Source: a virus (lineage: Duplodnaviria > Caudoviricetes). Taken from it: a DNA stretch of 64,000 nt. Position 1 is the stretch's first letter; each line of letters opens with the position of its first letter. The stretch is taken from IMG/VR virus record IMGVR_UViG_3300020577_008743, positions 1 to 64,000 of that record, one strand, 5' to 3'. A program made the position numbers and the translations under genes. The notes beneath the pieces were generated by a model. That model was not told the DNA's origin, made no database searches, and saw only the letters and a list, made by a program, of their open reading frames with translations. Positions 417-41,881 of this stretch are shown here, in pieces.

Positions 417-1694
417 ATGACTAAGTTAATAGACCTACCCCTAACCCAACTATACCAACGCCCCTCCATCACTGCCTCCGTTGAAGAGGCCATCCGCTCC
501 AAAGAAGACTTCTCTCGGATTCAGCCTAGCTATTGTCAAGCTGTCTGCAAGTTGAAATGCAAACAGTTCGCTAACACGGAAGGTGTCAGACTTCTGGATC
601 ATCGTCCTGACGTCCTGATCATACAGGACCACAACGCCCTGCCTGATACTAGATACAACAAATCCAGTCATCAGATCGAGGAAGCCAACCTCAAGATTCT
701 CCGAGCGTTGATAAAGCAGTGCTTTCCAGACGGGACCACTTACTACGTTTCCAACTTGCTGAAATGCGGAGTAACCCCCGCCGACATGATAAAAGGAAAA
801 GGCCCTGGAGTTACAGTCCTCTCCAAGTGTGCCCCTTACCTTTTATCCGAGATTGAACGCTGTGCTCCAACCATTATCATTAGTCTGACGACATCCTGTA
901 CCAAAGCCCTGGGATTCACCAAGAAGAGCAATACAAACAATCGTGGTGAGATTCACAGATTGGCAGACGGCACTCCAGTCATCTTTACTTTGCACCCCAA
1001 GCTTACAACCATGATTCGTCAGAATGCTTCTGGCGCAATGTGGGGTCCTGACTATTGGGAAGTTATAAAGCGAGATTTCGTCAAAGCCTCCAAGTTGTTA
1101 TCCGGAGAGCTTGATCCAGGTACTCTTGACGAGGGTATTACTCAAGCCCAAACCAAGATTCAAATCGCAGATACGCTACAAGCCGTTAAAACGGCCGTAG
1201 AACGCATTTTGAGCCTGGGTAAGACCAAGATAGTCAGCTTCGATACTGAAACGACTGGGCTCGATCCTTGGGCTCCTGAAGCCAAGCTGTTAACTATTCA
1301 GTTCGGCTACAAGAACGAACAGGGTGAATACGAAGCAGTCGTCATTCCTTTATGGCACCGAGAGAACAAAGCTTACCGCCCAGAGGAAGCCTGGGCCCTG
1401 CTGTTACCAATACTTGAAAGATCCGACGTCCCAAAAATAGGTCACAACGCCAAATTCGATATACTATACATTTATGCAACTACCGGTTGCAGAGTACAGG
1501 GATTGGTGTATGATACCATGCTCGTTCTACACAACCTCAATTCCGGAGTTCAGGGCTGCTATGGTCTAAAGGCCGCAGTCTGGGATTGGATACCCGAGAG
1601 TAATCTGGGGGGCTATGAAGATAAGCTACCTAGTCTTACAAAGACGAAAAAAGAGGTAAAAGGAGAAGAACAAGGAGAAATGAGTGACGATTAA
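417..1694 (+). CDS. DNA polymerase A N-terminal part: uracil-DNA-glycosylase-like domain plus 3'-5' exonuclease motifs I/II
   Basis: CAPYLLSEIE..TLHP (UDG-like); SFDTETTGLD (ExoI); GHNAKFD (ExoII); SPO1-like architecture. Confidence 0.85.
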   Translation: MTKLIDLPLTQLYQRPSITASVEEAIRSKEDFSRIQPSYCQAVCKLKCKQFANTEGVRLLDHRPDVLIIQDHNALPDTRYNKSSHQIEEANLKILRALIKQCFPDGTTYYVSNLLKCGVTPADMIKGKGPGVTVLSKCAPYLLSEIERCAPTIIISLTTSCTKALGFTKKSNTNNRGEIHRLADGTPVIFTLHPKLTTMIRQNASGAMWGPDYWEVIKRDFVKASKLLSGELDPGTLDEGITQAQTKIQIADTLQAVKTAVERILSLGKTKIVSFDTETTGLDPWAPEAKLLTIQFGYKNEQGEYEAVVIPLWHRENKAYRPEEAWALLLPILERSDVPKIGHNAKFDILYIYATTGCRVQGLVYDTMLVLHNLNSGVQGCYGLKAAVWDWIPESNLGGYEDKLPSLTKTKKEVKGEEQGEMSDD

Positions 1695-2340
1695 ACGGTA
1701 TGATACGTATGAGGACTTTGAGTACAACGATCTTCTTACGTATGCAGGTATAGACTGCCTGGCAACAAGTCGACTTTTAGCCAAGCTGGGACCGCAGATA
1801 TTTGAGAAGCCCAGCTATACAGAAGTCAAGGCAGGAGCGTCTAGTAAAGTAACACTGATGTCTATAAGTGAATCAATGGAACGGTATCTGATGCCGGCTT
1901 TTGAATTCATTTGTGACATGGAAATCAATGGCATTAAATATGACGTTGCTCTCAACCAGCAAGTTGGGAATCGAATGCAGCAAGAAATTGCTACTCTCGA
2001 AGACGATATATTTGCTTCCATTGGAAGAGAACTGGACTTGAACTCCGGCAAGGTAATGGCCGAGTTTCTATACGGTGAAAAAGGCTACGAGCCTCCTGGA
2101 TATACAAAGACAGGGGAACCATCTACGGATGGGGATGCCATGGCTGAACTTGCCAAGAAGTACGAAGGAGACTCTGGCTGGCTTAAGGCAATTGGTAAAC
2201 GTAACGACATTGCCAGCGTATACAGAACATTCGTTAGAGACTATGTTGCCGAACACGTCAAGAGAGATGGAAGAGTACACCCTTCCTACAACCTTAACGG
2301 GACTAGCTCTTTTCGTATAACCGGGGATAAACCTAACCTT
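1684..2340 (+). CDS. polA: DNA polymerase A C-terminal gene, exon 1
   Basis: YAGID (ExoIII), MEINGIKYD, DGRVHPSYN..TSSFRITGDKPNL; GTG start after AAGGAG. Confidence 0.85.
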
Positions 2341-2993
2341 AAAGTTTGAGGCTTTACTAAGAAATTAGTATTGACAAACGGTGCGAATTGCTGGAAACTC
2401 TGACCGAGTAATGTCGAAGACAATCAGCAGCCATTTAAAATGAAACTTTGTAAGAATTGTAACCAACATCCGATAAAATACCGCACAGCTAAGTATTGTG
2501 TGGAATGTTCTATTTCAGTTAGAAAAGCTAATGCTAGAAATAGAACTATGAAATACATGTTAAAAAACAACATGATTCAGAACCCAGGAGTTGGGACAGG
2601 GAAAGCCAATACTAAAGGTGTAGAAGATTCTAACTACACTAATGGTCGGAGCTTTTTCATGAAGATACGAGAACAAATTCTCAATGATAGAAAAAGTTGC
2701 AACAGATGTAACAGGTTGCTTCTTCCTAAGAGAAAAGGTCAGTGGTGTGTACACCACATAGATCACGACAGAACTAATAATGTCATTGAAAATTTCGAGC
2801 TTTTGTGTATCACCTGTCATAATAAAGAACACAAAGTAGTCAACCATTTCAAGTGGTTCAGAGACTATCCTATTATAGGAGTAGGCGCCAAGGGGCGTCG
2901 AAGCACACCGGGTCCTGAAAAGGATCATGATATAGTCCGACCTGTTGAGAAATCAACAGAGAGCTAAATACCGATTAGTTCGCAACACAAGTG
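2341..2993 (+). mobile_element. group I intron 1 in polA
   Basis: Exon ends in U (AACCTT), pairing with GAGG in P1; core elements AATTGCTGGAAACTC, AATCAGCAGCC, GTTCAGAGACTA, GATATAGTCC; ends in G2993; splicing restores PNL|TQLPRP. Confidence 0.9.
2440..2967 (+). CDS. intron-encoded HNH homing endonuclease
   Basis: CNRC..VHHIDHDRTNNVIENFELLCITCHNKEH; N-terminal CxxC pairs. Confidence 0.88.
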   Translation: MKLCKNCNQHPIKYRTAKYCVECSISVRKANARNRTMKYMLKNNMIQNPGVGTGKANTKGVEDSNYTNGRSFFMKIREQILNDRKSCNRCNRLLLPKRKGQWCVHHIDHDRTNNVIENFELLCITCHNKEHKVVNHFKWFRDYPIIGVGAKGRRSTPGPEKDHDIVRPVEKSTES

Positions 2994-3289
2994 ACACAAC
3001 TACCCCGTCCAAAACATGGATACAACGTTCGTGAGTTTTTTACCGTCGACCAAGGCAACCTGTTTATAGCCTTCGACTTTAGTAGTGCAGAAGTAAAAGT
3101 ATTAGGAGCGTTATGTCGAGACCCTGCTTTGTTGAGGGCTATCCATGAAGGAAGAGATTTCCATAGCTTTTCAGCAGCGAACATGTATGGTATTCCATAC
3201 GACGAATTTGTACACGTGTTAGAAGATGACTCCTCTCCATTGAAGAAGAAGTACAAGGAGATGAGACAAAATGCAAAAGCACTTACCTT
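2994..3289 (+). CDS. polA: DNA polymerase A exon 2 (motif A)
   Basis: FIAFDFSSAEVKVL, DFH, RQNAKALT. Confidence 0.88.
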
Positions 3290-3547
3290 AAACTAACCTG
3301 AGGCTACATCAAGGAATTGATGATAGAAAACAACGAGAATTCGGTGGAACTCTAAGGCAGAGATGCTATGACAATACCGAGCCGAGCTGAGTGATAATCA
3401 CTTGGAAGGTGTAACGACTATCCCTGCGGGGAGTAGGACTCAAGAGAGTTCGAAGCACGTTGAGCCCAGTTCGGGCTGTGATATAGTCTGTACTTTCGAG
3501 AAATCGAAAGAGACCTAGTGGAATCGATTAGATCGTAACATGAATAG
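3290..3547 (+). mobile_element. group I intron 2 in polA (no ORF)
   Basis: ACCTT|AAA with GAGG P1; GAATTCGGTGGAACTC, AATACCGAGCC, GTAACGACTA, GATATAGTCT; ends in G3547; splicing restores motif B KALT-F-GILYG. Confidence 0.9.
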
Positions 3548-4121
3548 TGGAATTTTGTATGGTTCTTCTCCGGCCGGCGTAGCCATGAACATGGGCGTAA
3601 CCCTGGAAAAAGCACAAGAACTGATTCGTATGTACTTCGATTTGTATCCTAAAATCGAAGAGTTTGTGGCAGATTCTCATCGTATGGCGGAGTTGAACCA
3701 CATGGTTGTAACCCCATTTGGTCAAAGAAAGCACCAGTTTGGAGCACGTCCTGAATACAAATACACCGCAGTTTATAACGCTGCCAAACGTAATTCACAG
3801 AACGTCAGAATCCAAAGCCCTACCTCAACCCTGGGTCTGGTCTGCTTTACCGAACTTAACAAGCGTATCAAGAAACTCGGAGGGAAAAGCCTTTGCACAG
3901 TCTATGACTCAGTAGAATTGGAAATCCCCATAGCCAGGGCAGCAGAGGCTATCGAAACCGCTTTTTACTGCATGAACGATTACCCACAAGAGACATTCGA
4001 TTGGCTTGATTTCCCTATTGGAGTTGAAGGGGAAATAGGTTATAATTGGGGGGATGTCTCAACGGTTCATCGCGGTGTTACCCAAGAGCAAATAGAACAG
4101 AAGATAGGATTAAACGAATGA
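3548..4121 (+). CDS. polA: DNA polymerase A exon 3 (motifs B/C)
   Basis: GILYG, RNSQNVRIQS, TVYDSVELE. Confidence 0.88.
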
Positions 4122-5577: not shown

Positions 5578-5646
5578 AGCCTCCGAGTGTGGTATAAGGA
5601 AAATGTAGTAGGAGTTTCTTTACCACAACCCACCCGAAGGAACATC

Positions 5647-6696: not shown

Positions 6697-7428
6697 ATGC
6701 GCTTCGGCATGAACGACAACGACACCCAGACCCATACCGGCCCGAGCAACTTCCAGTACACCGGGGTTCGCTTCGAACGACTGAAGAACGCCGGCTACAC
6801 CCTGGTCTGCATTCTGGTCGACACGACTGGCTCCACCATGGGCTACGTGAACGACTTCCACAAGCTGATCCTCAAGGTCATCGGCGCCTGCCGGGCGCAC
6901 CCCATGAAGGAGTCCCTGCTCATTCGCGTCTGCGAATTCAACTCGAGCATCGGAGTGAAGGAGATCCACGGCTTCATCCCCGTGATCAACACGAAGGACT
7001 CCGACTACCCCTCCCTGGTGGCTCAGGGCGCAACGCCTCTGTACGACGCCATGTACTCGGCCGTCGGCAGTGTCGATGACTATGCCCGACAGCTGACGGA
7101 CAAGGAGTACAACGTGAATGGCGTGGCCTTCACCATCACGGACGGCGGCAACACTCACTCGGCCGTCGGGCTGAGAGATGTCAAGACGCTGATGGAGGGC
7201 GCAGTCTCCGGAGAACATCTGGAGTCCTTCCGCCACATCCTGATCGCCGCTGGTGCCGAGGTGTCTCATCTGGCCTCCGATGCCAAACTGGCCGGCGCCG
7301 AGTACGTTCCCATCGGTTCTGCCGACGAGAAGAACCTGGCCAAGCTGGCTGACTTCATCAGTGGCAGCATCAGCGCAACCAGCCAGTCCCTGGGAACCGG
7401 CGGGCCCAGTCAACCGCTGACGTTCTAA
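6697..7428 (+). CDS. vWA domain protein (TerY-like)
   Basis: MIDAS-like DTTGST, GATPLYDA, TITDG. Confidence 0.8.
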   Translation: MRFGMNDNDTQTHTGPSNFQYTGVRFERLKNAGYTLVCILVDTTGSTMGYVNDFHKLILKVIGACRAHPMKESLLIRVCEFNSSIGVKEIHGFIPVINTKDSDYPSLVAQGATPLYDAMYSAVGSVDDYARQLTDKEYNVNGVAFTITDGGNTHSAVGLRDVKTLMEGAVSGEHLESFRHILIAAGAEVSHLASDAKLAGAEYVPIGSADEKNLAKLADFISGSISATSQSLGTGGPSQPLTF

Positions 7429-7435
7429 CGAACTC

Positions 7436-7640
7436 GGCTCCGTAGCTCAAATGACAGAGCTTCTTCATCGCAAACCGTACGGAGAATAGGGCAGTAATGG
7501 GGTGGAGTGACTCATCCATCCCCGTGAAGTCCCGGTTAGTCACCGGGCCTAACAGGAATCCGAACGTACGAGAGGCTTTGTGACGGCGTGGGGTAGCTGC
7601 CACGTCAGAGATGGGGGTTTGAATCCTTCCGGAGCCACCA
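7436..7640 (+). ncRNA. 205-nt RNA with tRNA acceptor, D and T arms and a large structured insert replacing the anticodon arm
   Basis: GGCTCCG/CGGAGCC-A-CCA; GCTC/GAGC D stem; GGGGG-TTTGAAT-CCTTC T arm; internal hairpins. Confidence 0.75.
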
Positions 7641-7643
7641 AAA

Positions 7644-7963
7644 TTCGAGAGCAAGGTTAGGATGTTGGAGCAACGTCTCCATCATTTAAAGAGTAGGTAG
7701 AAGTGGGACTTAGTCGTAACACGGAGGAATCTTCCAAGCGCCCATAAAAAGGTCTTGATACCCTCTGTCCTCTCACAAACAGAGAGTTGGCTAGGTGGTT
7801 ACACTGGAGCTAGGCGTCCTTAGGAGGCCTCAGTTGTCCCCCGAAGAACACGAAAAGGCTTGTGTTGTTGTACGGCCGTAGCTAGGTCAAGGTCCGACAA
7901 CTAAGTAACCCTTTTGGCCAAAACCCTTGCGGGGCAGTGGCACACTATCCTTGACTCGAACCA
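7644..7963 (+). ncRNA. putative ~320-nt end-paired structured RNA
   Basis: TTCGAG..CAAGG.TAG pairs with CTA.CCTTG.CTCGAA followed by CCA; no + strand ORF. Confidence 0.5.
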
Positions 7964-7966
7964 TAC

Positions 7967-8188
7967 ATGAACTACTACGAACCAATTCAAATTAATGGAG
8001 GCGTACTGTGGCGGCGTAGGTCCACGGAAGACGAGATTACTCTGTTGGAACTTCCCCCGGACCTGTACCGAGACTTGAGGGATTTGGCCGAAGCCAGAGG
8101 CATGTCTACGGAAGCCTTCATAGAATACGCCCTGGAGGTTGCGATTTTGGTTAGAGGGCACGGCCTAACAGAACCGCCGAAGTATTAG
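7967..8188 (+). CDS. small ribbon-helix-helix-like DNA-binding protein
   Basis: LELPPDLYRDLRDLAEARGMSTEAFIEYAL pattern. Confidence 0.5.
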   Translation: MNYYEPIQINGGVLWRRRSTEDEITLLELPPDLYRDLRDLAEARGMSTEAFIEYALEVAILVRGHGLTEPPKY

Positions 8189-8200
8189 CGGTTCTTTTTT
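8171..8200 (+). terminator. intrinsic terminator
   Basis: GAACCGC/GCGGTTC hairpin plus T-run, abutting a promoter motif. Confidence 0.7.
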
Positions 8201-8234
8201 GGTATAAGACAAAGTATCCAACTAGGAGTCATTC

Positions 8235-9266
8235 ATGAAAGTCAGAAACCAGTATATAGCCATTCCCCTAAACGACAACACCGATCTGTGCGTTTCTGTC
8301 GATTCCTACGTCGCCCGGGGCAAACGGCATGAACGTGATCACACCGTTTGTCAGGACTACGCTGCTACCGGGGTGATAAGCGATGGCTGTCCTACACTGG
8401 TTGTTGCGGATGGTTGTAGCGCCAGTCTCGGTTCCGAACTCGGTGCCATGCTGAACTGCCACATGTGGATGACTTTTGCAAGCACTCACCGTATGCGCTA
8501 TCCTGACATGACAAAATGGGCGTCGATCTGGAAGTTCAACTACATTCGTAGCGTCGAAGACTACCGCAGTGGCGGCTTGATGGACGACGGAGAAGGAAGC
8601 ATTTTCGATGCCACCATGCTGTCCGCCATGTTCATCCCCTCCATGAACTCTGTCATTCTCACAGTTCAGGGAGACGGGGCCTGGCTGGCTGTCTACGAAA
8701 AATCGAACGGAGAATTGGTTTACTGTTTCGACTACCTGACGTGGAAAACCGGCATGCCTCCGTATCCGTCCTACGCCCTGGACAATGATCGAATGACGGC
8801 TTACTGGACTCACAGTCAGAAGCTTCTCAGCGGCAGAGCGGAAGGGGTGTGGACTGCTTCGGAAACGGAAGGATTTCTGAAGGTTACTTCTTCGGTGGCT
8901 CTAAGCGATGTCCTTCCCGTTGGCGCCCTTACGGACAACTTCGGTCTGGTCATTGAACTCCCCCGTCTTCGTGATGAACCCGACGGCCAGTGGAAGTTGA
9001 AGACATTTTCCGTGTTCACTGACGGAGTGCTGGATATTCGTCATGAAAACGAACTTCCTCTATACATCAACTATCCTGCAGGCTTGGTGAAGGACCTGAC
9101 TGACTACAAGTCCACCGCCGGGGATTTCCAGTTTCGCCGTTGCCGAGCCTTTTTCAAAGGACTGGCGGTGGACGGGGTTTTCCCTGAAGATGACTTTTCT
9201 GTAGCAACAATGCTGTTTGAAGAACGGAGGCTGCCGGATGGCGACGATAACAGTGGTAATGCATGA
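8235..9266 (+). CDS. PP2C-like protein phosphatase (TerY-P type)
   Basis: G.RH....CQD, VVADGCS, FTDGV, EDDFS. Confidence 0.8.
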   Translation: MKVRNQYIAIPLNDNTDLCVSVDSYVARGKRHERDHTVCQDYAATGVISDGCPTLVVADGCSASLGSELGAMLNCHMWMTFASTHRMRYPDMTKWASIWKFNYIRSVEDYRSGGLMDDGEGSIFDATMLSAMFIPSMNSVILTVQGDGAWLAVYEKSNGELVYCFDYLTWKTGMPPYPSYALDNDRMTAYWTHSQKLLSGRAEGVWTASETEGFLKVTSSVALSDVLPVGALTDNFGLVIELPRLRDEPDGQWKLKTFSVFTDGVLDIRHENELPLYINYPAGLVKDLTDYKSTAGDFQFRRCRAFFKGLAVDGVFPEDDFSVATMLFEERRLPDGDDNSGNA

Positions 9267-28561: not shown

Positions 28562-28653
28562 GGGAGAATAGCTCAATTGGTAGAGCAGCGGATTTATATC
28601 CCGTGCGTTAGATAAACGGTTGGTTGAGGGTTCGAGCCCCTCTTCTCCCACCA
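28562..28653 (+). tRNA. atypical tRNA, possibly Ile(UAU), with ~16 extra nt in the anticodon/variable region
   Basis: perfect acceptor, D and T arms and ACCA; irregular middle. Confidence 0.65.
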
Positions 28654-29493: not shown

Positions 29494-29579
29494 TGCGGGA
29501 TAGTGAGTAGCTGGTAGCTCTGAGGTCTCATAAGCCTCCGCCCTTGGCCCCGTCGGTTCGAGTCCGACTCCCGCAACCA
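29494..29579 (+). tRNA. tRNA-Met(CAU), atypical (extra nt before D stem, enlarged variable loop)
   Basis: TGCGGGA/TCCCGCA-ACCA; CAT. Confidence 0.8.
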
Positions 29580-33321: not shown

Positions 33322-33408
33322 CGGGGTGTAGGTCCGTAATCAGGTAGCGGTCTCGGCTTGGATCCGAGTGGGAAACCCTTGCAGGTTCAAATCCTGCCTC
33401 CCCGACCA
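33322..33408 (+). tRNA. tRNA-Pro(UGG), atypical (variable-arm hairpin)
   Basis: CGGGG start, TGG, ACCA. Confidence 0.8.
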
Positions 33409-38523: not shown

Positions 38524-38661
38524 TAGGACCGCAGAATTACGATTATCTATAATAGCTGACATGCTGCAGGTTCGAGTCCTGCCTGGCCCACCATCTATGG
38601 GTCCAGTGGCGAAATGGTATACGCATCAGCCCTAAACCAGTCGTATTCATAATTTGTCCTA
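38524..38661 (+). ncRNA. Y RNA-like 1 (YrlA type, tRNA-like domain)
   Basis: TAGGAC-CG..TTTGTCCTA stem, TTATC, T arm-acceptor-D arm order. Confidence 0.85.
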
Positions 38662-38670
38662 TTCTTCAAC

Positions 38671-38729
38671 GGGGGCGAAGTAGAAACTTATGAAGTTCGC
38701 AGCTTCTATTTTTCGATACGCTTCCACCA
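38671..38729 (+). ncRNA. 59-nt alanine-acceptor minihelix-like RNA
   Basis: GGGGGCG/CGCTTCC-A-CCA with G3.U70. Confidence 0.6.
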
Positions 38730-38734
38730 ACAAA

Positions 38735-39061
38735 ATGTCTCACACAACCGAGTTGTACTTCGAGTCACATATCACTATTGAGCCCGTGTTCGATGAAAGA
38801 CTGGAACAGTTCAAGGGAATATGTGCTTCGGAGGGTTTCAAGGCAGCAGAGCTGCTGATGAAAAAACGTTCGGGTGATACCGCTGAACGTTCGCAGTACG
38901 ATACCTTTTGCACTAGTAGAGATCTTATTTATGATAAAATCCAGACTAGAACATTAACCTTGGTCGAAAAGTTGCAGTCTTCCGGGTTTGACGTCTGGAG
39001 ATATAAGATTGAGAATACCTTGTTGGATGTTAGACTTAAATTAGAGTCTAAAATCCAGTAG
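38735..39061 (+). CDS. hypothetical protein inside the Y RNA cluster
   Basis: YFESHITI..WRYKIE. Confidence 0.65.
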   Translation: MSHTTELYFESHITIEPVFDERLEQFKGICASEGFKAAELLMKKRSGDTAERSQYDTFCTSRDLIYDKIQTRTLTLVEKLQSSGFDVWRYKIENTLLDVRLKLESKIQ

Positions 39062-39162
39062 GGCAAAAGATTCGATTGTTGTTTATATTACTAAATATAT
39101 TGAGTCTGTAAAAGCTGTTTGCAGTAGAATCAAGAAACATTCGTAGTACTAGAAGCATCCTC

Positions 39163-39224
39163 AGGGCCGCAGGAAGATCGGTTATCCCCTACACTGATGA
39201 CTCCGATTTCCGTATTTTCGCCCT
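39163..39224 (+). ncRNA. Y RNA-like 2 (minimal)
   Basis: AGGGC-CG..TTCGCCCT, GGAAGATCGG/CCGATTTCC, TTATC. Confidence 0.75.
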
Positions 39225-39234
39225 TCCCCCAATT

Positions 39235-39295
39235 AGAGCCGATTTGAGCTGGGTTATCCTTCTAAGATACCTCCCCATCTCAGTTCCCTTGCTCT
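39235..39295 (+). ncRNA. Y RNA-like 3 (minimal)
   Basis: AGAGC-CG..TTGCTCT, TGAG.TGGG/CCCA.CTCA, TTATC. Confidence 0.75.
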
Positions 39296-39324
39296 CCCTC
39301 TTGTAGTTGTGGTACAATCAACTT

Positions 39325-39453
39325 TTGAGCCGCTGTTAAATTCCGTTATCTTCCTTAGAAATAGGAAGTTGCGGGTTCGAATCCCGTCGCCAGCTTATAT
39401 CTGGCGTAGTTTAATTGGTAAAACTAAAACCGGAACTACACTAATTCGCTCAA
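39325..39453 (+). ncRNA. Y RNA-like 4 (tRNA-like domain)
   Basis: TTGAGC-CG..TTCGCTCAA, TTATC, GGTTCGAATCC, CGCCAG/CTGGCG, TAGTTTAATTGGTAAAAC; TGTGGTACAAT just upstream. Confidence 0.85.
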
Positions 39454-39460
39454 CCCCATT

Positions 39461-39530
39461 TAGGGCCGTCAGGTTATGTCGGTTATCTCACTTTTAGCGA
39501 AAACCCCGATTAACCATAAATTTTGCCCTA
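39461..39530 (+). ncRNA. Y RNA-like 5 (minimal)
   Basis: TAGGGC-CG..TTTGCCCTA, GGTTA..TCGG/CCGA.TAACC, TTATC. Confidence 0.75.
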
Positions 39531-39549
39531 CTGATTTAAATTTCAATTT

Positions 39550-39609
39550 GGAGCCGCTTAAAACTGGGTTATCAATTGGTGATTACTCCCCAGTCTAACT
39601 TTTCGCTCC
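39550..39609 (+). ncRNA. Y RNA-like 6 (minimal)
   Basis: GGAGC-CG..TTCGCTCC, ACTGGG/CCCAGT, TTATC. Confidence 0.75.
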
Positions 39610-39663
39610 TCCCGTTTAAACAAAGATTGCTGGGTTCAAACCTCTTTCTTTTAGCTGTTCAAA

Positions 39664-41609
39664 ATGACCTCTCACAGAAAAATTACCCCGTCTGAACGAA
39701 ATATTCTCCACCTCATAAATCGTAGCATAGCGGATTCAGAAGGCTGGTGTAATGTAAGTTCTGCCGTGTTTCCCCTTGTCAAAGACTTTGACTCTGAACT
39801 AGTTGAAATAAACGGCAACAAAATTCGGTTGACATCGGTAGGTAAGATACTTGCAGATTGGACTTGATTATGACCGACTCAGAACTAATACAAAATGCGG
39901 CTAAAGCCATCGGACTCATTGCAACCCCGATATTTACGGAAAATTTCGAGGGCCAGGAGTGGTGGGCGTATGAAGAAGGCAAGCCTACACAAACGCTAAG
40001 GCCGTGGAATCCTCTTGTGGATGATGGGGATGCCCTACGGTTGCTCGTAGAACTTGGAGACTATGTCCAGGAGGGGAGCTGGCCTTATATGTGGGGAGAG
40101 GCCCAAGAACAGGCTAAAGAAAACGATGGGCAAATAGACTGGTGTAAGGTTGTTCGTAGAACCATAGTAAAAGCTGCCGCCAATAAATGGTTAAGGATGG
40201 ATAGATCAAATGAAAAAGCAACCTCTAAATCCGCAGATTGAAAAACTTCTCGAGTTGTTAGACAAGGCCACGGAAGAACAACGAGGCAGCGAGAGGGCCC
40301 TGTACCTGTTGCTGAAACTCAATGTCGCTGTTCTTCCTGAACTGGATTACAGTTTTCACAAGGCTTTCAGACAGTATGATGTAACTGAGTCCGGTGAAAT
40401 GGATATGGCAATCTGGCATCTTTTAGGGGTTTCAAAGACGTTCTGGGAGGTGTTCGGGAAAATTACCGGAACAGATGATGAGGAGCCCGGCGAAGATGGC
40501 TAGAATAGAACTTATCTTCCCCGAGGAAGGATACCGTGAAGTAATCGGTGAAAGAGCACTCACTTTGGAAGAGGCTTTTGAAGCAGGAGTATTTTGGGCG
40601 ACCAGGCAGTTTCAAAGTAAATTCGGCATGTACTACCGCAAAGATGAGTGGGGAGAAAGAGACTACGTAGATGTAAAGTCCATTTTCCCCGATCATGTCA
40701 GGGACAAGATATGACCTGTAGGTTTTGCAACAAACCTTCCGTCAGTTACTACGATATATCTTTGACTGGTATTGGCAATTTCATTGAATACTGCAAGAAT
40801 CACCAGGAAGAGGCTCGTCAAAAGCGCGATGAGCATGATAGATATTGGGAAGAAATCCGAAAGGAAGTTATGAGGGAAAATGGCTAAAGTAACCTGGACA
40901 ATAGAGGATCACATATGTAGTTCTTGCGGGGGTCGAATAGTAAGATCAGCCAAGGGAACTGGTCCCACCCCTGGAGGAAATCCCGTATACAAGTGTTCTT
41001 TATGTGGTAAAGTTACAACAGAAATGGGAGGTCATTCCCTGTGTTGGTGCGGATATTCACAGAAATCCAATAACAACTCCCTTCCATATAAATGCGTTCC
41101 GTATTCGATATTAGAGAAATACCCTGACGGCTTAAGTTACTTTAAGTTTTGTGGATGTGATCCTAGGCGGGGAGGGGAAGTGGGAGTAATGTTAGAGGAG
41201 GATTGGAATGAACTTAGAAAAAAAGACATTGCCGTACAAGTCATACCACCAACAGCTGATTGAGGCTAACACCAAAACAGAGGCTCTTCGAGAACTAATC
41301 TCAACATTGGGTGAATTGTTGGTAAAAGAACAGGAAGCCCGTATTTTATACGAAGATGCTGTATGGAAAATGGTCAACGATGGTTGGTTAGTCCACGGTC
41401 CGGAAGGCATGAGTGAAGCTCAACAAGCTGTCTATGATGTTTGTAAAAATCATCCGGAGCTAAAAACTCGAATAAAACAAAAGCAAGAAGAACAGAGAAA
41501 TTACGAAGAAGCTACGAACAGAAATGTTCGGCTAGAATCCACTCCGGGAACATACGTACCAAATCCCAAACCCCTACCAGCCTGGCGTCGTTTGTTTCGC
41601 TGGCTGTAA
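39664..41609 (+). other. run of small hypothetical genes (39664-39867, 39858-40241, 40210-40503, ~40496-40714, ~40711-40887, 40880-41263, 41208-41609)
   Basis: overlapping + strand ORFs. Confidence 0.55.
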
Positions 41610-41615
41610 CCAAAT

Positions 41616-41743
41616 TTGAGCCGTTAGAATTTGATTATCCAATCGCAGGACGTGGTCAAAGGTTCGAATCCTTTCTCCCCCGCCATCAATGGGGGAGTAG
41701 CTCAGAGGTAGAGCACGTAAACTCGAATTCTGTTTTTGCTCAA
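41616..41743 (+). ncRNA. Y RNA-like 7 (tRNA-like domain)
   Basis: TTGAGC-CG..TTTGCTCAA, TTATC, AAAGGTTCGAATCCTTT, CTCCCCC/GGGGGAG, TAGCTCAGAGGTAGAGC. Confidence 0.88.
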
Positions 41744-41750
41744 TTCCAAT

Positions 41751-41881
41751 TTGGACCGAAGTTATTCAGTTATCGCTCCCAATGCGCCAGATCGGTTAAG
41801 TCCAGCACCCGTTGATTCATGGGTCGTAGTGTATAGAAGCACGGCGCATATTTTCAATTGATTAACGTTCACTTTGTCCAA
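41751..41881 (+). ncRNA. Y RNA-like 8 (degenerate tRNA-like domain)
   Basis: TTGGAC-CGAA..CTTTGTCCAA, TTATC, TGCGCC/GGCGCA enclosing T-, acceptor- and D-like hairpins. Confidence 0.8.

What the first reader, a model, noticed from the sequence alone, without database searches (positions are those of the whole stretch)
7436..7640. tRNA shell with a ~140-nt domain replacing the anticodon arm and a compensated elbow pair
Seen: perfect 7-bp acceptor with ACCA, D stem and T stem. The D loop has GA instead of GG and the T loop has TTTGAAT instead of TTCGAAT, so the G19-C56 tertiary pair becomes A19-U56. This compensatory change argues for selection on the L-shape. The insert has nested helices (TCGCAAA/TTTGTGA, CGTACG/CGTACG, GGGGTGGA/TCCATCCCC, CCCGGT/ACCGGG). 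It has no G3.U70 and no obvious tag ORF, so it is not tmRNA; no group I core motifs were seen. It sits inside the vWA-PP2C-kinase locus.
Basis: partly seen in the sequence, partly recalled or inferred. Interest (0 to 1): 0.75.

Follow-up and report, generated by a model that had tools for sequence, protein, structure and literature searches.

The report
Phage tRNA-shaped RNA with large insert
An uncultured phage carries a 205-base gene with a complete, evolutionarily maintained tRNA outer shape, but about 147 bases of folded RNA sit where the anticodon arm belongs, so it is most likely a non-decoding tRNA-like RNA of unknown role.

Summary
The tRNA shell at 7436-7640 is real: a 7-bp acceptor stem plus ACCA, a D arm, a T arm and a 5-nt variable-loop-like GAGAU. 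ARAGORN and Rfam do not call it a tRNA, tmRNA or intron.

Only one divergent ortholog was found (L006, 87% identical here). It has a canonical GG D-loop with a UUCGAAU T-loop, where the window has GA with UUUGAAU. Position 15/48 (the Levitt pair) also switches, A-U to G-C. None of the 8 shell substitutions breaks a stem, and hairpin 7497-7525 changes compensatorily. This points to selection on the L-shape, but it rests on two sequences.

A vestigial anticodon-like hairpin (UCUUC/GGAGA, 14-nt loop) is possible, which would place the extra ~120 nt in the variable-arm position.

There is no canonical anticodon loop, no G3.U70, no conserved tag ORF and no group I signal. The element lies inside an operon (promoter-like motif at 5591, terminator at 8171-8200) and shares leader and trailer motifs with the phage's genuine tRNAs.

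Best reading: it is cut out by tRNA-processing enzymes as a stable tRNA-scaffolded RNA. Its function is unknown, and no expression data were available.

The parts
7436..7442 (+). 5' acceptor strand GGCUCCG (tRNA positions 1-7)
   Evidence: Pairs perfectly with 7630-7636. In the ortholog, C6->U keeps a U.G pair.
7445..7460 (+). D arm GCUC-AAAUGACA-GAGC, with U8 A9 before it and U26 after it
   Evidence: The stem is invariant in the ortholog. Four D-loop positions change, including A15->G and the GA->GG re-registration.
7462..7485 (+). Possible vestigial anticodon arm: UCUUC / GGAGA with a 14-nt loop AUCGCAAACCGUAC
   Evidence: With the shell constrained, pairing probability is 0.83-0.88 in the window and 0.33-0.35 in the ortholog. 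The stem is invariant, so covariation cannot test it. The loop is not a canonical 7-nt anticodon loop.
7497..7525 (+). Hairpin HP1 (AUGGGGUGGA - GUGACUCA - UCCAUCCCCGU)
   Evidence: 13 of the 26 ortholog differences fall here, including a 2-nt indel. All are compatible with the hairpin: one pair changed on both sides and three wobble-preserving changes. Pairing probability >0.9 in both sequences.
7531..7547 (+). Hairpin HP2 candidate CCCGGU-UAGUC-ACCGGG. Its loop AGUC is complementary to GACU in the HP1 loop.
   Evidence: The complementary strings are present. The top two pairs are lost in the ortholog, and thermodynamic probability is low. GACU/AGUC complementarity is retained in both orthologs; I read this by eye from alignment A3.
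7566..7583 (+). Invariant segment holding GUACGAGAGG (identical to the 23S rRNA sarcin-ricin loop core) and GGCUUUG (an alternative partner for the 3' acceptor strand)
   Evidence: the 10-mer equals E. coli 23S positions 2655-2664; it occurs once in the window; sub-threshold tRNA and mascRNA alignments use GGCUUUG as the acceptor strand.
7585..7606 (+). Hairpin HP3 GGCGUGG-GGUAGCUG-CCACGUC
   Evidence: Pairing probability ~0.96 in both sequences. It is invariant between the orthologs.
7608..7612 (+). Variable-loop-like GAGAU (G44 A45 G46 A47 U48). U48 is the partner of A15.
   Evidence: U48->C in the ortholog matches A15->G: the Levitt pair goes from A-U to G-C.
7613..7629 (+). T arm GGGGG-UUUGAAU-CCUUC
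   Evidence: U56->C in the ortholog accompanies GA->GG in the D loop.
7630..7640 (+). 3' acceptor strand CGGAGCC, discriminator A (G in the ortholog), encoded CCA
   Evidence: A trailer AAATTC follows, like the AATTC after tRNA-Thr, Ser(GGA) and Ala.
5591..5598 (+). GGTATAAG promoter-like motif that probably starts the transcription unit containing the element
   Evidence: 14 copies in the window, all on the + strand, against 1.1 expected.
6700..7428 (+). vWA (YegL/TerY-like) gene ending 7 nt before the element
   Evidence: Homologs carry PF00092 and YegL names. The stop codon is at 7426-7428.
7644..7963 (+). Second structured RNA, or a leader, between the element and the RHH gene
   Evidence: RNAalifold against the ortholog gives 85 pairs, 7 of them changed on both sides.
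7967..8188 (+). 73-aa ribbon-helix-helix-like gene
   Evidence: The ORF is conserved in the ortholog. No other homolog was found.
8171..8200 (+). Intrinsic terminator GAACCGC-loop-GCGGUUC-U6, directly followed by the next GGTATAAG motif (8201-8208)
   Evidence: Read from the sequence. It is identical in the ortholog.

Best explanation
This is a phage gene for a non-decoding, tRNA-derived RNA of about 205 nt.

It is transcribed within the operon that runs from the GGTATAAG motif at 5591 to the terminator at 8171-8200. That operon holds the nicotinamidase-like gene, the vWA gene, this element, a second structured RNA and an RHH gene.

The intact acceptor/T-arm stack, the D-loop/T-loop elbow and the encoded RCCA make it a substrate for the host's tRNA-processing enzymes (RNase P at G7436, 3' trimming at A7640). 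Those enzymes would release it with defined ends. They would also sever the vWA message from the downstream RNA.

The L-shaped core acts as a stable scaffold or recognition handle. The roughly 147-nt multi-hairpin domain inserted between U26 and G44 is the part that does the specific job: binding a protein or RNA, or acting as a decoy for a factor that reads the tRNA elbow or CCA end.

Shown: the sequence anatomy, conservation in one ortholog, the pattern of compensatory substitution and the operon context. Inferred: transcription, processing, stability and any effector role.
For: 1. The shell is complete and specific.
2. Ortholog L006 is ~85% identical over 8 kb and 87% identical in the element.
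3. Of the 8 shell substitutions, only one lies in a stem, and it keeps the pair (C6-G67 to U6.G67). A15-U48 becomes G15-C48. GA/UUUGAAU becomes GG/UUCGAAU.
4. In a neutral simulation, P(no stem pair broken) = 0.034 and P(positions 15 and 48 both change and stay Watson-Crick) = 0.007.
5. The insert is also constrained. HP1 absorbs 13 differences, including a 2-nt indel, without losing pairing. Stretches of 28-31 nt are invariant.
6. There is no usable anticodon arm. ARAGORN default finds nothing, Rfam tRNA scores 20.9 bits against a threshold of 29, and ARAGORN intron mode gives different, poor models in the two orthologs: Thr(tgt) versus Cys(gca).
7. The leader (TAA-CGAACTC) and trailer (CCA-AAATTC) resemble those of bona fide tRNAs in the same phage, and 15 of 18 of those tRNAs encode CCA.
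8. Distant vWA-PP2C loci have only a terminator at this spot. A 52%-identical vWA relative (L007) has a different tRNA-like 5' half 21 nt after its stop codon. tRNA-type genes therefore sit at this site in more than one lineage.
Against: - Only two distinct sequences exist. Formal covariation statistics have no power: 114 of 500 shuffles reach the observed value.
- The 19-56 compensation needs a one-nucleotide re-registration of the D loop.
- Overall identity of the element (87%) is barely above that of the flanks (85%).
- The inner fold is unresolved.
- No partner or target is known.
- An alternative 11-bp helix (7454-7464 with 7571-7581) that would destroy the D arm is also compatible with both sequences.
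Confidence: 0.5

Rival explanations
1. It is a precursor of a real decoding tRNA. Either the extra RNA is removed by an unrecognised splicing route, or the mature tRNA keeps a giant variable arm and an enlarged anticodon loop.
For: - The 5' part reads like a tRNA through the anticodon loop in the window: UCUUC then A-U-CGC-A-A, with U33 and A37.
- A UCUUC/GGAGA stem exists.
- Other tRNAs of this phage that are normally short carry extra arms, at 92, 86 and 81 nt.
Against: - No 3' anticodon-stem strand lies next to the variable loop.
- The only candidate stem closes a 14-nt loop.
- The ortholog has C at position 33 (UC->CU swap).
- ARAGORN intron mode gives mutually inconsistent, poorly paired solutions in the two orthologs.
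- No group I or other ribozyme match appears even at E<=10.
- At ~110-150 nt the insert is shorter than any group I intron I know of (from memory).
- No RtcB is encoded in the 97-kb contig, which is 63% complete.
Confidence: 0.12
2. It is only an mRNA-processing signal (tRNA 'punctuation', like the MALAT1/mascRNA arrangement). Selection keeps the RNase P/Z-recognised shell so the operon transcript is cut after vWA. The insert has no function of its own.
For: - It starts 7 nt after the vWA stop codon, inside an operon.
- All the conserved tertiary features are those read by RNase P.
- The 3' part of the ortholog gives a sub-threshold mascRNA-like alignment (23.4 bits).
Against: - A plain tRNA or a minihelix would serve this purpose.
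- The insert shows compensatory maintenance of HP1 and long invariant stretches.
- The insert is kept at the same length, within 2 nt, in the ortholog.
Confidence: 0.15
3. It is a tmRNA-like or otherwise ribosome-directed RNA: a chargeable tRNA-like domain joined to a functional internal domain.
For: - The topology matches tmRNA: acceptor and T arm at the ends, a large domain in place of the anticodon arm.
- Short frames with the same stop codon exist in both orthologs. Examples are ..CAA ACC GUA CGG AGA AUA GGG CAG UAA and GUC CCG .. CAC CGG GCY UAA (read from A3).
- It contains the sarcin-ricin-loop 10-mer.
Against: - It has C3-G70 rather than G3.U70.
- It has a true 4-bp D stem, unlike tmRNA.
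- ARAGORN's tmRNA search and the Rfam tmRNA families are negative.
- The longest frame is broken by a 2-nt indel and a lost stop codon in the ortholog.
- None of the tag-like frames ends in the usual hydrophobic ..AA.
- The discriminator differs between orthologs (A versus G).
- No SmpB is encoded in the contig.
Confidence: 0.04
4. It is a decaying tRNA gene disrupted by an insertion, with no present function.
For: - It is not recognised by tRNA finders.
- Its identity to the ortholog is only slightly above that of the flanks.
- It was found in a single phage lineage.
Against: - The substitution pattern avoids or compensates every shell pair, including two tertiary pairs.
- HP1 is maintained through 13 changes.
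- The same sequence is present unchanged in many independent samples.
Confidence: 0.08

Closest known systems
tmRNA (SsrA)
   Same: The acceptor stem with CCA and the T arm form the ends of the molecule. A large structured domain sits where the anticodon arm would be.
   Different: No G3.U70, no conserved tag reading frame and no detectable tmRNA pseudoknot pattern. This element has a true D stem, a canonical Levitt pair and a 5-nt variable loop, and it is much shorter. ARAGORN and Rfam do not recognise it as tmRNA.
YrlA-type bacterial Y RNAs (tRNA-mimicking partners of Ro60/Rsr; Chen et al. 2014, PMC4201824)
   Same: A tRNA-like module joined to a second functional module. The same phage encodes several YrlA-like RNAs at 38.5-41.9 kb.
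   Different: In YrlA the tRNA-like part is circularly permuted: the acceptor stem is closed by a loop, and the RNA ends form the Ro-binding stem. Here the ends are the acceptor stem with CCA. There is no GCCG...GUUAUC-type module like the one in the phage's Y RNAs, and the element lies 31 kb from them.
tRNA-like processing elements such as mascRNA at the MALAT1 3' end, and tRNA punctuation of polycistronic transcripts
   Same: A tRNA-shaped element embedded in a longer transcript, expected to be cut by RNase P and 3' processing enzymes and to end in CCA.
   Different: Those elements are about 60 nt with a reduced anticodon region. This one carries a 147-nt conserved insert, and it is bacterial/phage. 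The mascRNA match is far below the Rfam threshold (23.4 versus 42.5 bits).
Class II tRNAs and non-canonical tRNAs with long variable arms
   Same: If UCUUC/GGAGA is the anticodon stem, the extra RNA emerges where the long variable arm of Leu, Ser and Tyr tRNAs emerges. Position 48 still pairs with position 15.
   Different: Known variable arms are about 10-25 nt, while this would be about 120 nt with several hairpins. The anticodon loop would be 14 nt instead of 7 and would lack a conserved U33.
Engineered 'tRNA scaffold' RNAs (an RNA of interest inserted in place of the anticodon arm for stable expression; from memory)
   Same: The same design: an intact acceptor, D and T core, with cargo replacing the anticodon stem-loop.
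   Different: That design is artificial. A natural phage-encoded example has not, to my knowledge, been described.

Membership tests
Canonical decoding tRNA (Rfam RF00005) | 7-bp acceptor stem, discriminator base, CCA | tested here: met
   7436-7442 pairs with 7630-7636, followed by A and CCA.
Canonical decoding tRNA (Rfam RF00005) | D arm and T arm with the elbow contacts (G18, 19-56, T54-A58) and the 15-48 Levitt pair | tested here: met
   G18 is present. The 19-56 pair is A19-U56 in the window and G19-C56 in the ortholog. The 15-48 pair is A15-U48 in the window and G15-C48 in the ortholog. U54 and A58 are present.
Canonical decoding tRNA (Rfam RF00005) | 5-bp anticodon stem with a 7-nt loop (U33, purine 37) between positions 26 and 44 | tested here: not met
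   The only stem candidate closes a 14-nt loop, and the ortholog has C at position 33. ARAGORN default finds nothing and its intron mode is inconsistent between orthologs.
Canonical decoding tRNA (Rfam RF00005) | Score at or above the Rfam gathering threshold | tested here: not met
   20.9 bits (window) and 17.5 bits (ortholog) against a threshold of 29, and only for the 3' 64 nt.
tmRNA | G3.U70 alanine identity pair | tested here: not met
   C3-G70 in both orthologs.
tmRNA | Conserved tag reading frame with a resume codon and a stop codon | tested here: not met
   The long frame is broken by a 2-nt indel, and its stop codon UGA becomes GGA in the ortholog. The short frames have no tag-like C-terminus.
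tmRNA | Recognition by the ARAGORN tmRNA search or the Rfam tmRNA models | tested here: not met
YrlA / Y RNA | 5' and 3' ends form the Ro60-binding stem, and the tRNA-like module is permuted | tested here: not met
   The ends form an acceptor stem with CCA. The motif shared by the phage's own Y-like RNAs (GCCG...GUUAUC) is absent.
tRNA gene with a group I intron | Group I core (P3-P9) detectable, and exons that join to give a canonical tRNA | tested here: not met
   No Intron_gpI hit at E<=10 in either ortholog. No exon junction yields a canonical anticodon arm.
RNase P / tRNA-processing substrate | Coaxial 12-bp acceptor/T stack, intact elbow, 3' RCCA | tested here: met
   The sequence features are present and conserved. 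Actual cleavage cannot be tested with these tools.
RNase P / tRNA-processing substrate | A processed RNA with 5' end at 7436 and 3' end at 7640 exists in vivo | not testable with these tools
   No RNA run was listed for this sequence.

The most novel reading that the evidence does not exclude
This is a natural 'tRNA scaffold': a previously undescribed class of phage RNA. A fully maintained tRNA core, possibly even chargeable or bound by EF-Tu, RNase P or other elbow or CCA readers, carries a dedicated effector domain in place of the anticodon arm. That domain might act as a decoy for a host tRNA-end-targeting or ribosome-targeting defence factor. It contains a GAGA loop embedded in the sarcin-ricin-loop 10-mer. 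It is distinct from both tmRNA and Y RNAs.
Probability: 0.25. Interest if true: 0.8.

Novelty: new variant of a known kind. Interest (0 to 1): 0.55.

Why it matters
Apart from tmRNA, natural RNAs that keep the complete, unpermuted tRNA core and swap the anticodon branch for a large domain are essentially unknown.

A phage-encoded example would show that viruses use the tRNA fold as a processing and stability scaffold for other RNA functions, or as a mimic aimed at enzymes that read the tRNA elbow or CCA end.

This phage also carries about 18 tRNAs, several YrlA-like Y RNAs with Ro60, and other structured RNAs. It looks like a rich natural source of tRNA-mimicry devices.

The claim can be tested directly with a Northern blot or RACE, an RNase P assay and structure probing.

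Tried and rejected
**Homolog hunt**
- blastn of 7300-8300 against phage records: no match.
- The search for related loci with vWA, PP2C and PolA-exo in viral contigs, and with a vWA alignment in metagenome contigs: only distant loci, none with a tRNA at this site.
- The 76-kb related phage record G001 has no vWA gene and no such element.
- Exact-pattern scans of viral contigs and of genome contigs: one chance hit in a coding region, otherwise nothing.
- Protein searches with PP2C, vWA and RHH and cluster members yielded one divergent ortholog (L006, which is the same phage as L005) and one identical copy (L025). L007 and L026 end too early.
- No paralog of the insert exists in the 97-kb contig.
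- No clear parent tRNA among the phage's own tRNAs.

**Expression**
- No RNA holder was listed.
- Laying four DNA runs gave only short, identical contig pieces.

**Other checks**
- RtcB and SmpB were not found in the contig, which is 63% complete.
- The count of structure pairs on two sequences has no statistical power.
- A genome-wide RNAduplex target scan timed out.
- The TAACA-type motif shows only a weak strand bias.
- Resemblances to RNase P, SRP and 6S RNA that I considered by eye have no Rfam support.
- An attP/tRNA-fragment reading is rejected: both tRNA halves are present, and no integrase was noted among the nearby genes that were scanned.
- Literature searches found no description of this kind of RNA.

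Full report
**Setting**

The window is the first 64 kb of a 97,490-bp IMG/VR phage contig, estimated 63% complete. ARAGORN finds 17 tRNAs and Rfam finds 17, partly the same ones. Most of them encode CCA.

The finding lies between two genes:
- Upstream is a YegL/TerY-type vWA gene ending at 7428. Its homologs carry PF00092.
- Downstream is a PP2C phosphatase gene (8235-9266; PF13672, E = 2.7e-10), followed by a weak kinase match.

Yes for the shell. The sequence at 7436-7640 reads:
- GGCUCCG (7436-7442), then U8 A9
- D arm GCUC-AAAUGACA-GAGC (7445-7460), then U26
- about 147 nt of insert
- GAGAU (7608-7612)
- T arm GGGGG-UUUGAAU-CCUUC (7613-7629)
- CGGAGCC (7630-7636), then A and CCA

A custom scan for this grammar (T arm with a UUYRA-type loop, 7/7 acceptor pairing, NCCA, U8, A14, a 4-bp D stem, and 60-700 nt between the acceptor start and the T arm) was run on both strands of the whole contig. 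It returned only this element and a 92-nt tRNA, so the shell is not chance.

Standard detectors do not call it:
- ARAGORN finds no tRNA or tmRNA here.
- Rfam at gathering thresholds finds nothing.
- In E-value mode Rfam gives only a 20.9-bit tRNA alignment of the last 64 nt, which uses an internal GGCUUUG as the acceptor strand.

**Homologs**

The lineage is rare. Searches by DNA, by neighbouring proteins and by exact patterns in phage, viral, metagenome and genome collections gave little. They produced:
- One divergent ortholog, L006 (the same phage as L005). It is 85% identical over 8 kb.
- One identical copy from another sample, L025.

Distant vWA-PP2C loci (L002, L009-L018) have only a terminator between the two genes and no tRNA.

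A relative with 52% vWA identity (L007) has a different tRNA-like 5' half (GGCCACC-UA-GCAU-ACUGGGGA-AUGC...) 21 nt after its stop codon, just before the contig ends.

**What the ortholog shows**

The two elements differ at 26 of 207 columns.

In the 59-nt shell there are 8 differences:
- C6->U, which keeps a U.G pair with G67. It is the only one of the eight that lies in a stem.
- A15->G together with U48->C. This is the Levitt pair, changing from A-U to G-C.
- Three D-loop changes turn AAAUGACA into AGAGGUUA. This restores a canonical GG, and it comes together with U56->C (UUUGAAU to UUCGAAU).
- A73->G.

The GG sits one position earlier in the ortholog's D loop, so the pair does not align column for column.

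A neutral simulation placed 8 random substitutions in the shell:
- P(no stem pair is broken) = 0.034.
- P(positions 15 and 48 both change and stay Watson-Crick) = 0.007.

With only two sequences the formal shuffle test has no power: 114 of 500 shuffles reach the observed value. I therefore regard selection on the L-shape as well supported but not proven.

**The insert**

Hairpin HP1 (7497-7525) takes 13 of the 26 differences, including a 2-nt indel, and stays fully paired. One pair changed on both sides and three changes preserve a wobble pair. The indel also rules out a reading frame running through it.

HP3 (7585-7606) is invariant and thermodynamically dominant.

- UCGCAAA/UUUGUGA becomes C.A and G.G at two of its seven pairs in the ortholog.
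- CCCGGU/ACCGGG loses its two top pairs.
- CGUACG/CGUACG is invariant and so untested.
- With the shell enforced, all three have pairing probability <=0.06 in both sequences.

The segment right after U26 instead tends to form UCUUC/GGAGA (7462-7485) with a 14-nt loop. Its probability is 0.85 in the window and 0.34 in the ortholog. If that is a vestigial anticodon arm, the remaining ~120 nt emerge where class II tRNAs carry their variable arm. This fits the canonical-looking G44-A45-G46-A47-U48 just before the T stem. It also fits the unusual extra arms in this phage's 92-, 86- and 81-nt tRNAs.

The fold of the central part (7526-7584) is unresolved. Features noted there:
- The HP1 loop GACU and the HP2 loop AGUC remain complementary in both orthologs.
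- GGCUUUG (7574-7580) can replace the 5' acceptor strand. By my estimate this has about a 14% chance of arising at random.
- An 11-bp helix between 7454-7464 and 7571-7581 would compete with the D arm.

**What it is not**

- **Not a decoding tRNA.** There is no 7-nt anticodon loop. Position 33 is U in the window but C in the ortholog. ARAGORN's intron mode yields different, poorly paired models for the two orthologs: Thr(tgt) with a 109-nt intron and Cys(gca) with a 116-nt intron.
- **Not a group I intron host.** There is no Rfam intron or ribozyme hit at E<=10 in either ortholog.
- **Not a tmRNA.** It has C3-G70 and a true D stem. No frame is conserved, because the UGA that ends the long frame is GGA in the ortholog. 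No detector hit was obtained, and no SmpB is encoded on the contig.
- **Not a Y RNA.** The phage's YrlA-like RNAs at 38.5-41.9 kb are circularly permuted tRNA mimics with a GCCG...GUUAUC module. This element has neither feature.

**Context and likely mechanism**

GGTATAAG occurs 14 times in the window, always on the + strand, against 1.1 expected. It looks like the phage's promoter element. Copies lie at 5591 and 8201.

A clear intrinsic terminator (8171-8200) precedes the second copy. The element is therefore internal to a transcript that carries, in order:
- the nicotinamidase-like gene,
- the vWA gene,
- the element,
- a 320-nt structured RNA (7644-7963; 7 pairs changed on both sides against the ortholog),
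- a conserved 73-aa RHH-like gene.

The element's leader (TAA-CGAACUC) and trailer (CCA-AAAUUC) resemble those of genuine tRNAs in the phage: TAA-CAACUC before tRNA-Ser, and CCA-AAUUC after Thr, Ser and Ala.

The features under selection are the acceptor/T stack, the elbow and RCCA. From established knowledge, these are what RNase P, 3'-end processing and the CCA enzyme read, and the anticodon arm is dispensable for them.

The best-supported mechanism is therefore excision by the host tRNA-processing machinery. This would yield a stable L-shaped RNA that presents a conserved ~147-nt domain, and at the same time cut the operon transcript after vWA. What the domain binds is unknown.

**A curiosity**

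7566-7575 (GUACGAGAGG) is identical to E. coli 23S rRNA positions 2655-2664, the sarcin-ricin loop core. It occurs only once in the window. The nucleotide equivalent to A2665 is missing, so a full bulged-G motif cannot form. I treat this as a lead only.

**Verdict**

This is a real, conserved, tRNA-derived RNA gene of a kind not described for phages, to my knowledge and in the literature searched. Its closest analogues are:
- tmRNA, for topology;
- mascRNA-type processing elements, for maturation;
- engineered tRNA scaffolds, for design.

It fails the membership tests for tRNA, tmRNA, Y RNA and intron-bearing tRNA. Evidence is limited to two sequences, and no expression data were available.

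I rate it a new variant of a known kind (tRNA-like non-coding RNA), with interest 0.55.

Noticed in passing
window 7644-7963: A 320-nt RNA directly after the element, closed by a terminal stem (UUCGAG.../...CUCGAA) and ending at the RHH start codon. Against the ortholog, 85 predicted pairs include 7 changed on both sides. The terminal 'CCA' is not conserved in the ortholog. There is no Rfam match, apart from a weak DUF805b-like hit at 7665-7699 that recurs in the ortholog.
   Followed up: partly
window 7967-8188: A 73-aa ribbon-helix-helix-like ORF, conserved in the ortholog with many amino-acid changes. No other homolog turned up among 5.8 billion proteins. Its stop codon lies inside the terminator hairpin.
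   Followed up: partly
window, 14 sites (e.g. 358, 5591, 8201, 35324, 35552, 37937): GGTATAAG occurs 14 times, all on the + strand, against 1.1 expected. It is probably the phage's promoter -10-type element.
   Followed up: partly
window 38524-41881: Eight Y-RNA-like genes. Several have a circularly permuted tRNA-like module (T arm, closed acceptor hairpin, D arm) between GCCG...GUUAUC and a closing stem, so they are YrlA-type RNAs. An earlier scan note places a Ro60 gene beside them; I did not check that.
   Followed up: partly
window 28562-28653, 29494-29579, 33325-33405: tRNAs of normally short classes (Ile-UAU-like at 92 nt, Met at 86 nt, Pro-UGG-like at 81 nt) carry extra arms in the variable region. 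The Ile-like one has an A31-C39 mismatch.
   Followed up: no
window 417-4121: The family A DNA polymerase is split into at least three ORFs (417-1694 exonuclease plus a weak UDG match, 1684-2349, 3540-4121), with unrelated ORFs in between.
   Followed up: no
L007:1557-1607: In a phage whose vWA is 52% identical, a different tRNA-like 5' half (GGCCACC UA GCAU-ACUGGGGA-AUGC A GAUAU UGGU) begins 21 nt after the vWA stop codon. The contig ends before the rest.
   Followed up: partly
window 7566-7575: GUACGAGAGG is identical to E. coli 23S rRNA positions 2655-2664 (the sarcin-ricin loop core) and occurs once in the window. The flanks could form a CGAA/UUUG stem with a C-GAGA-G tetraloop, but they lack the A2665 equivalent.
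   Followed up: partly
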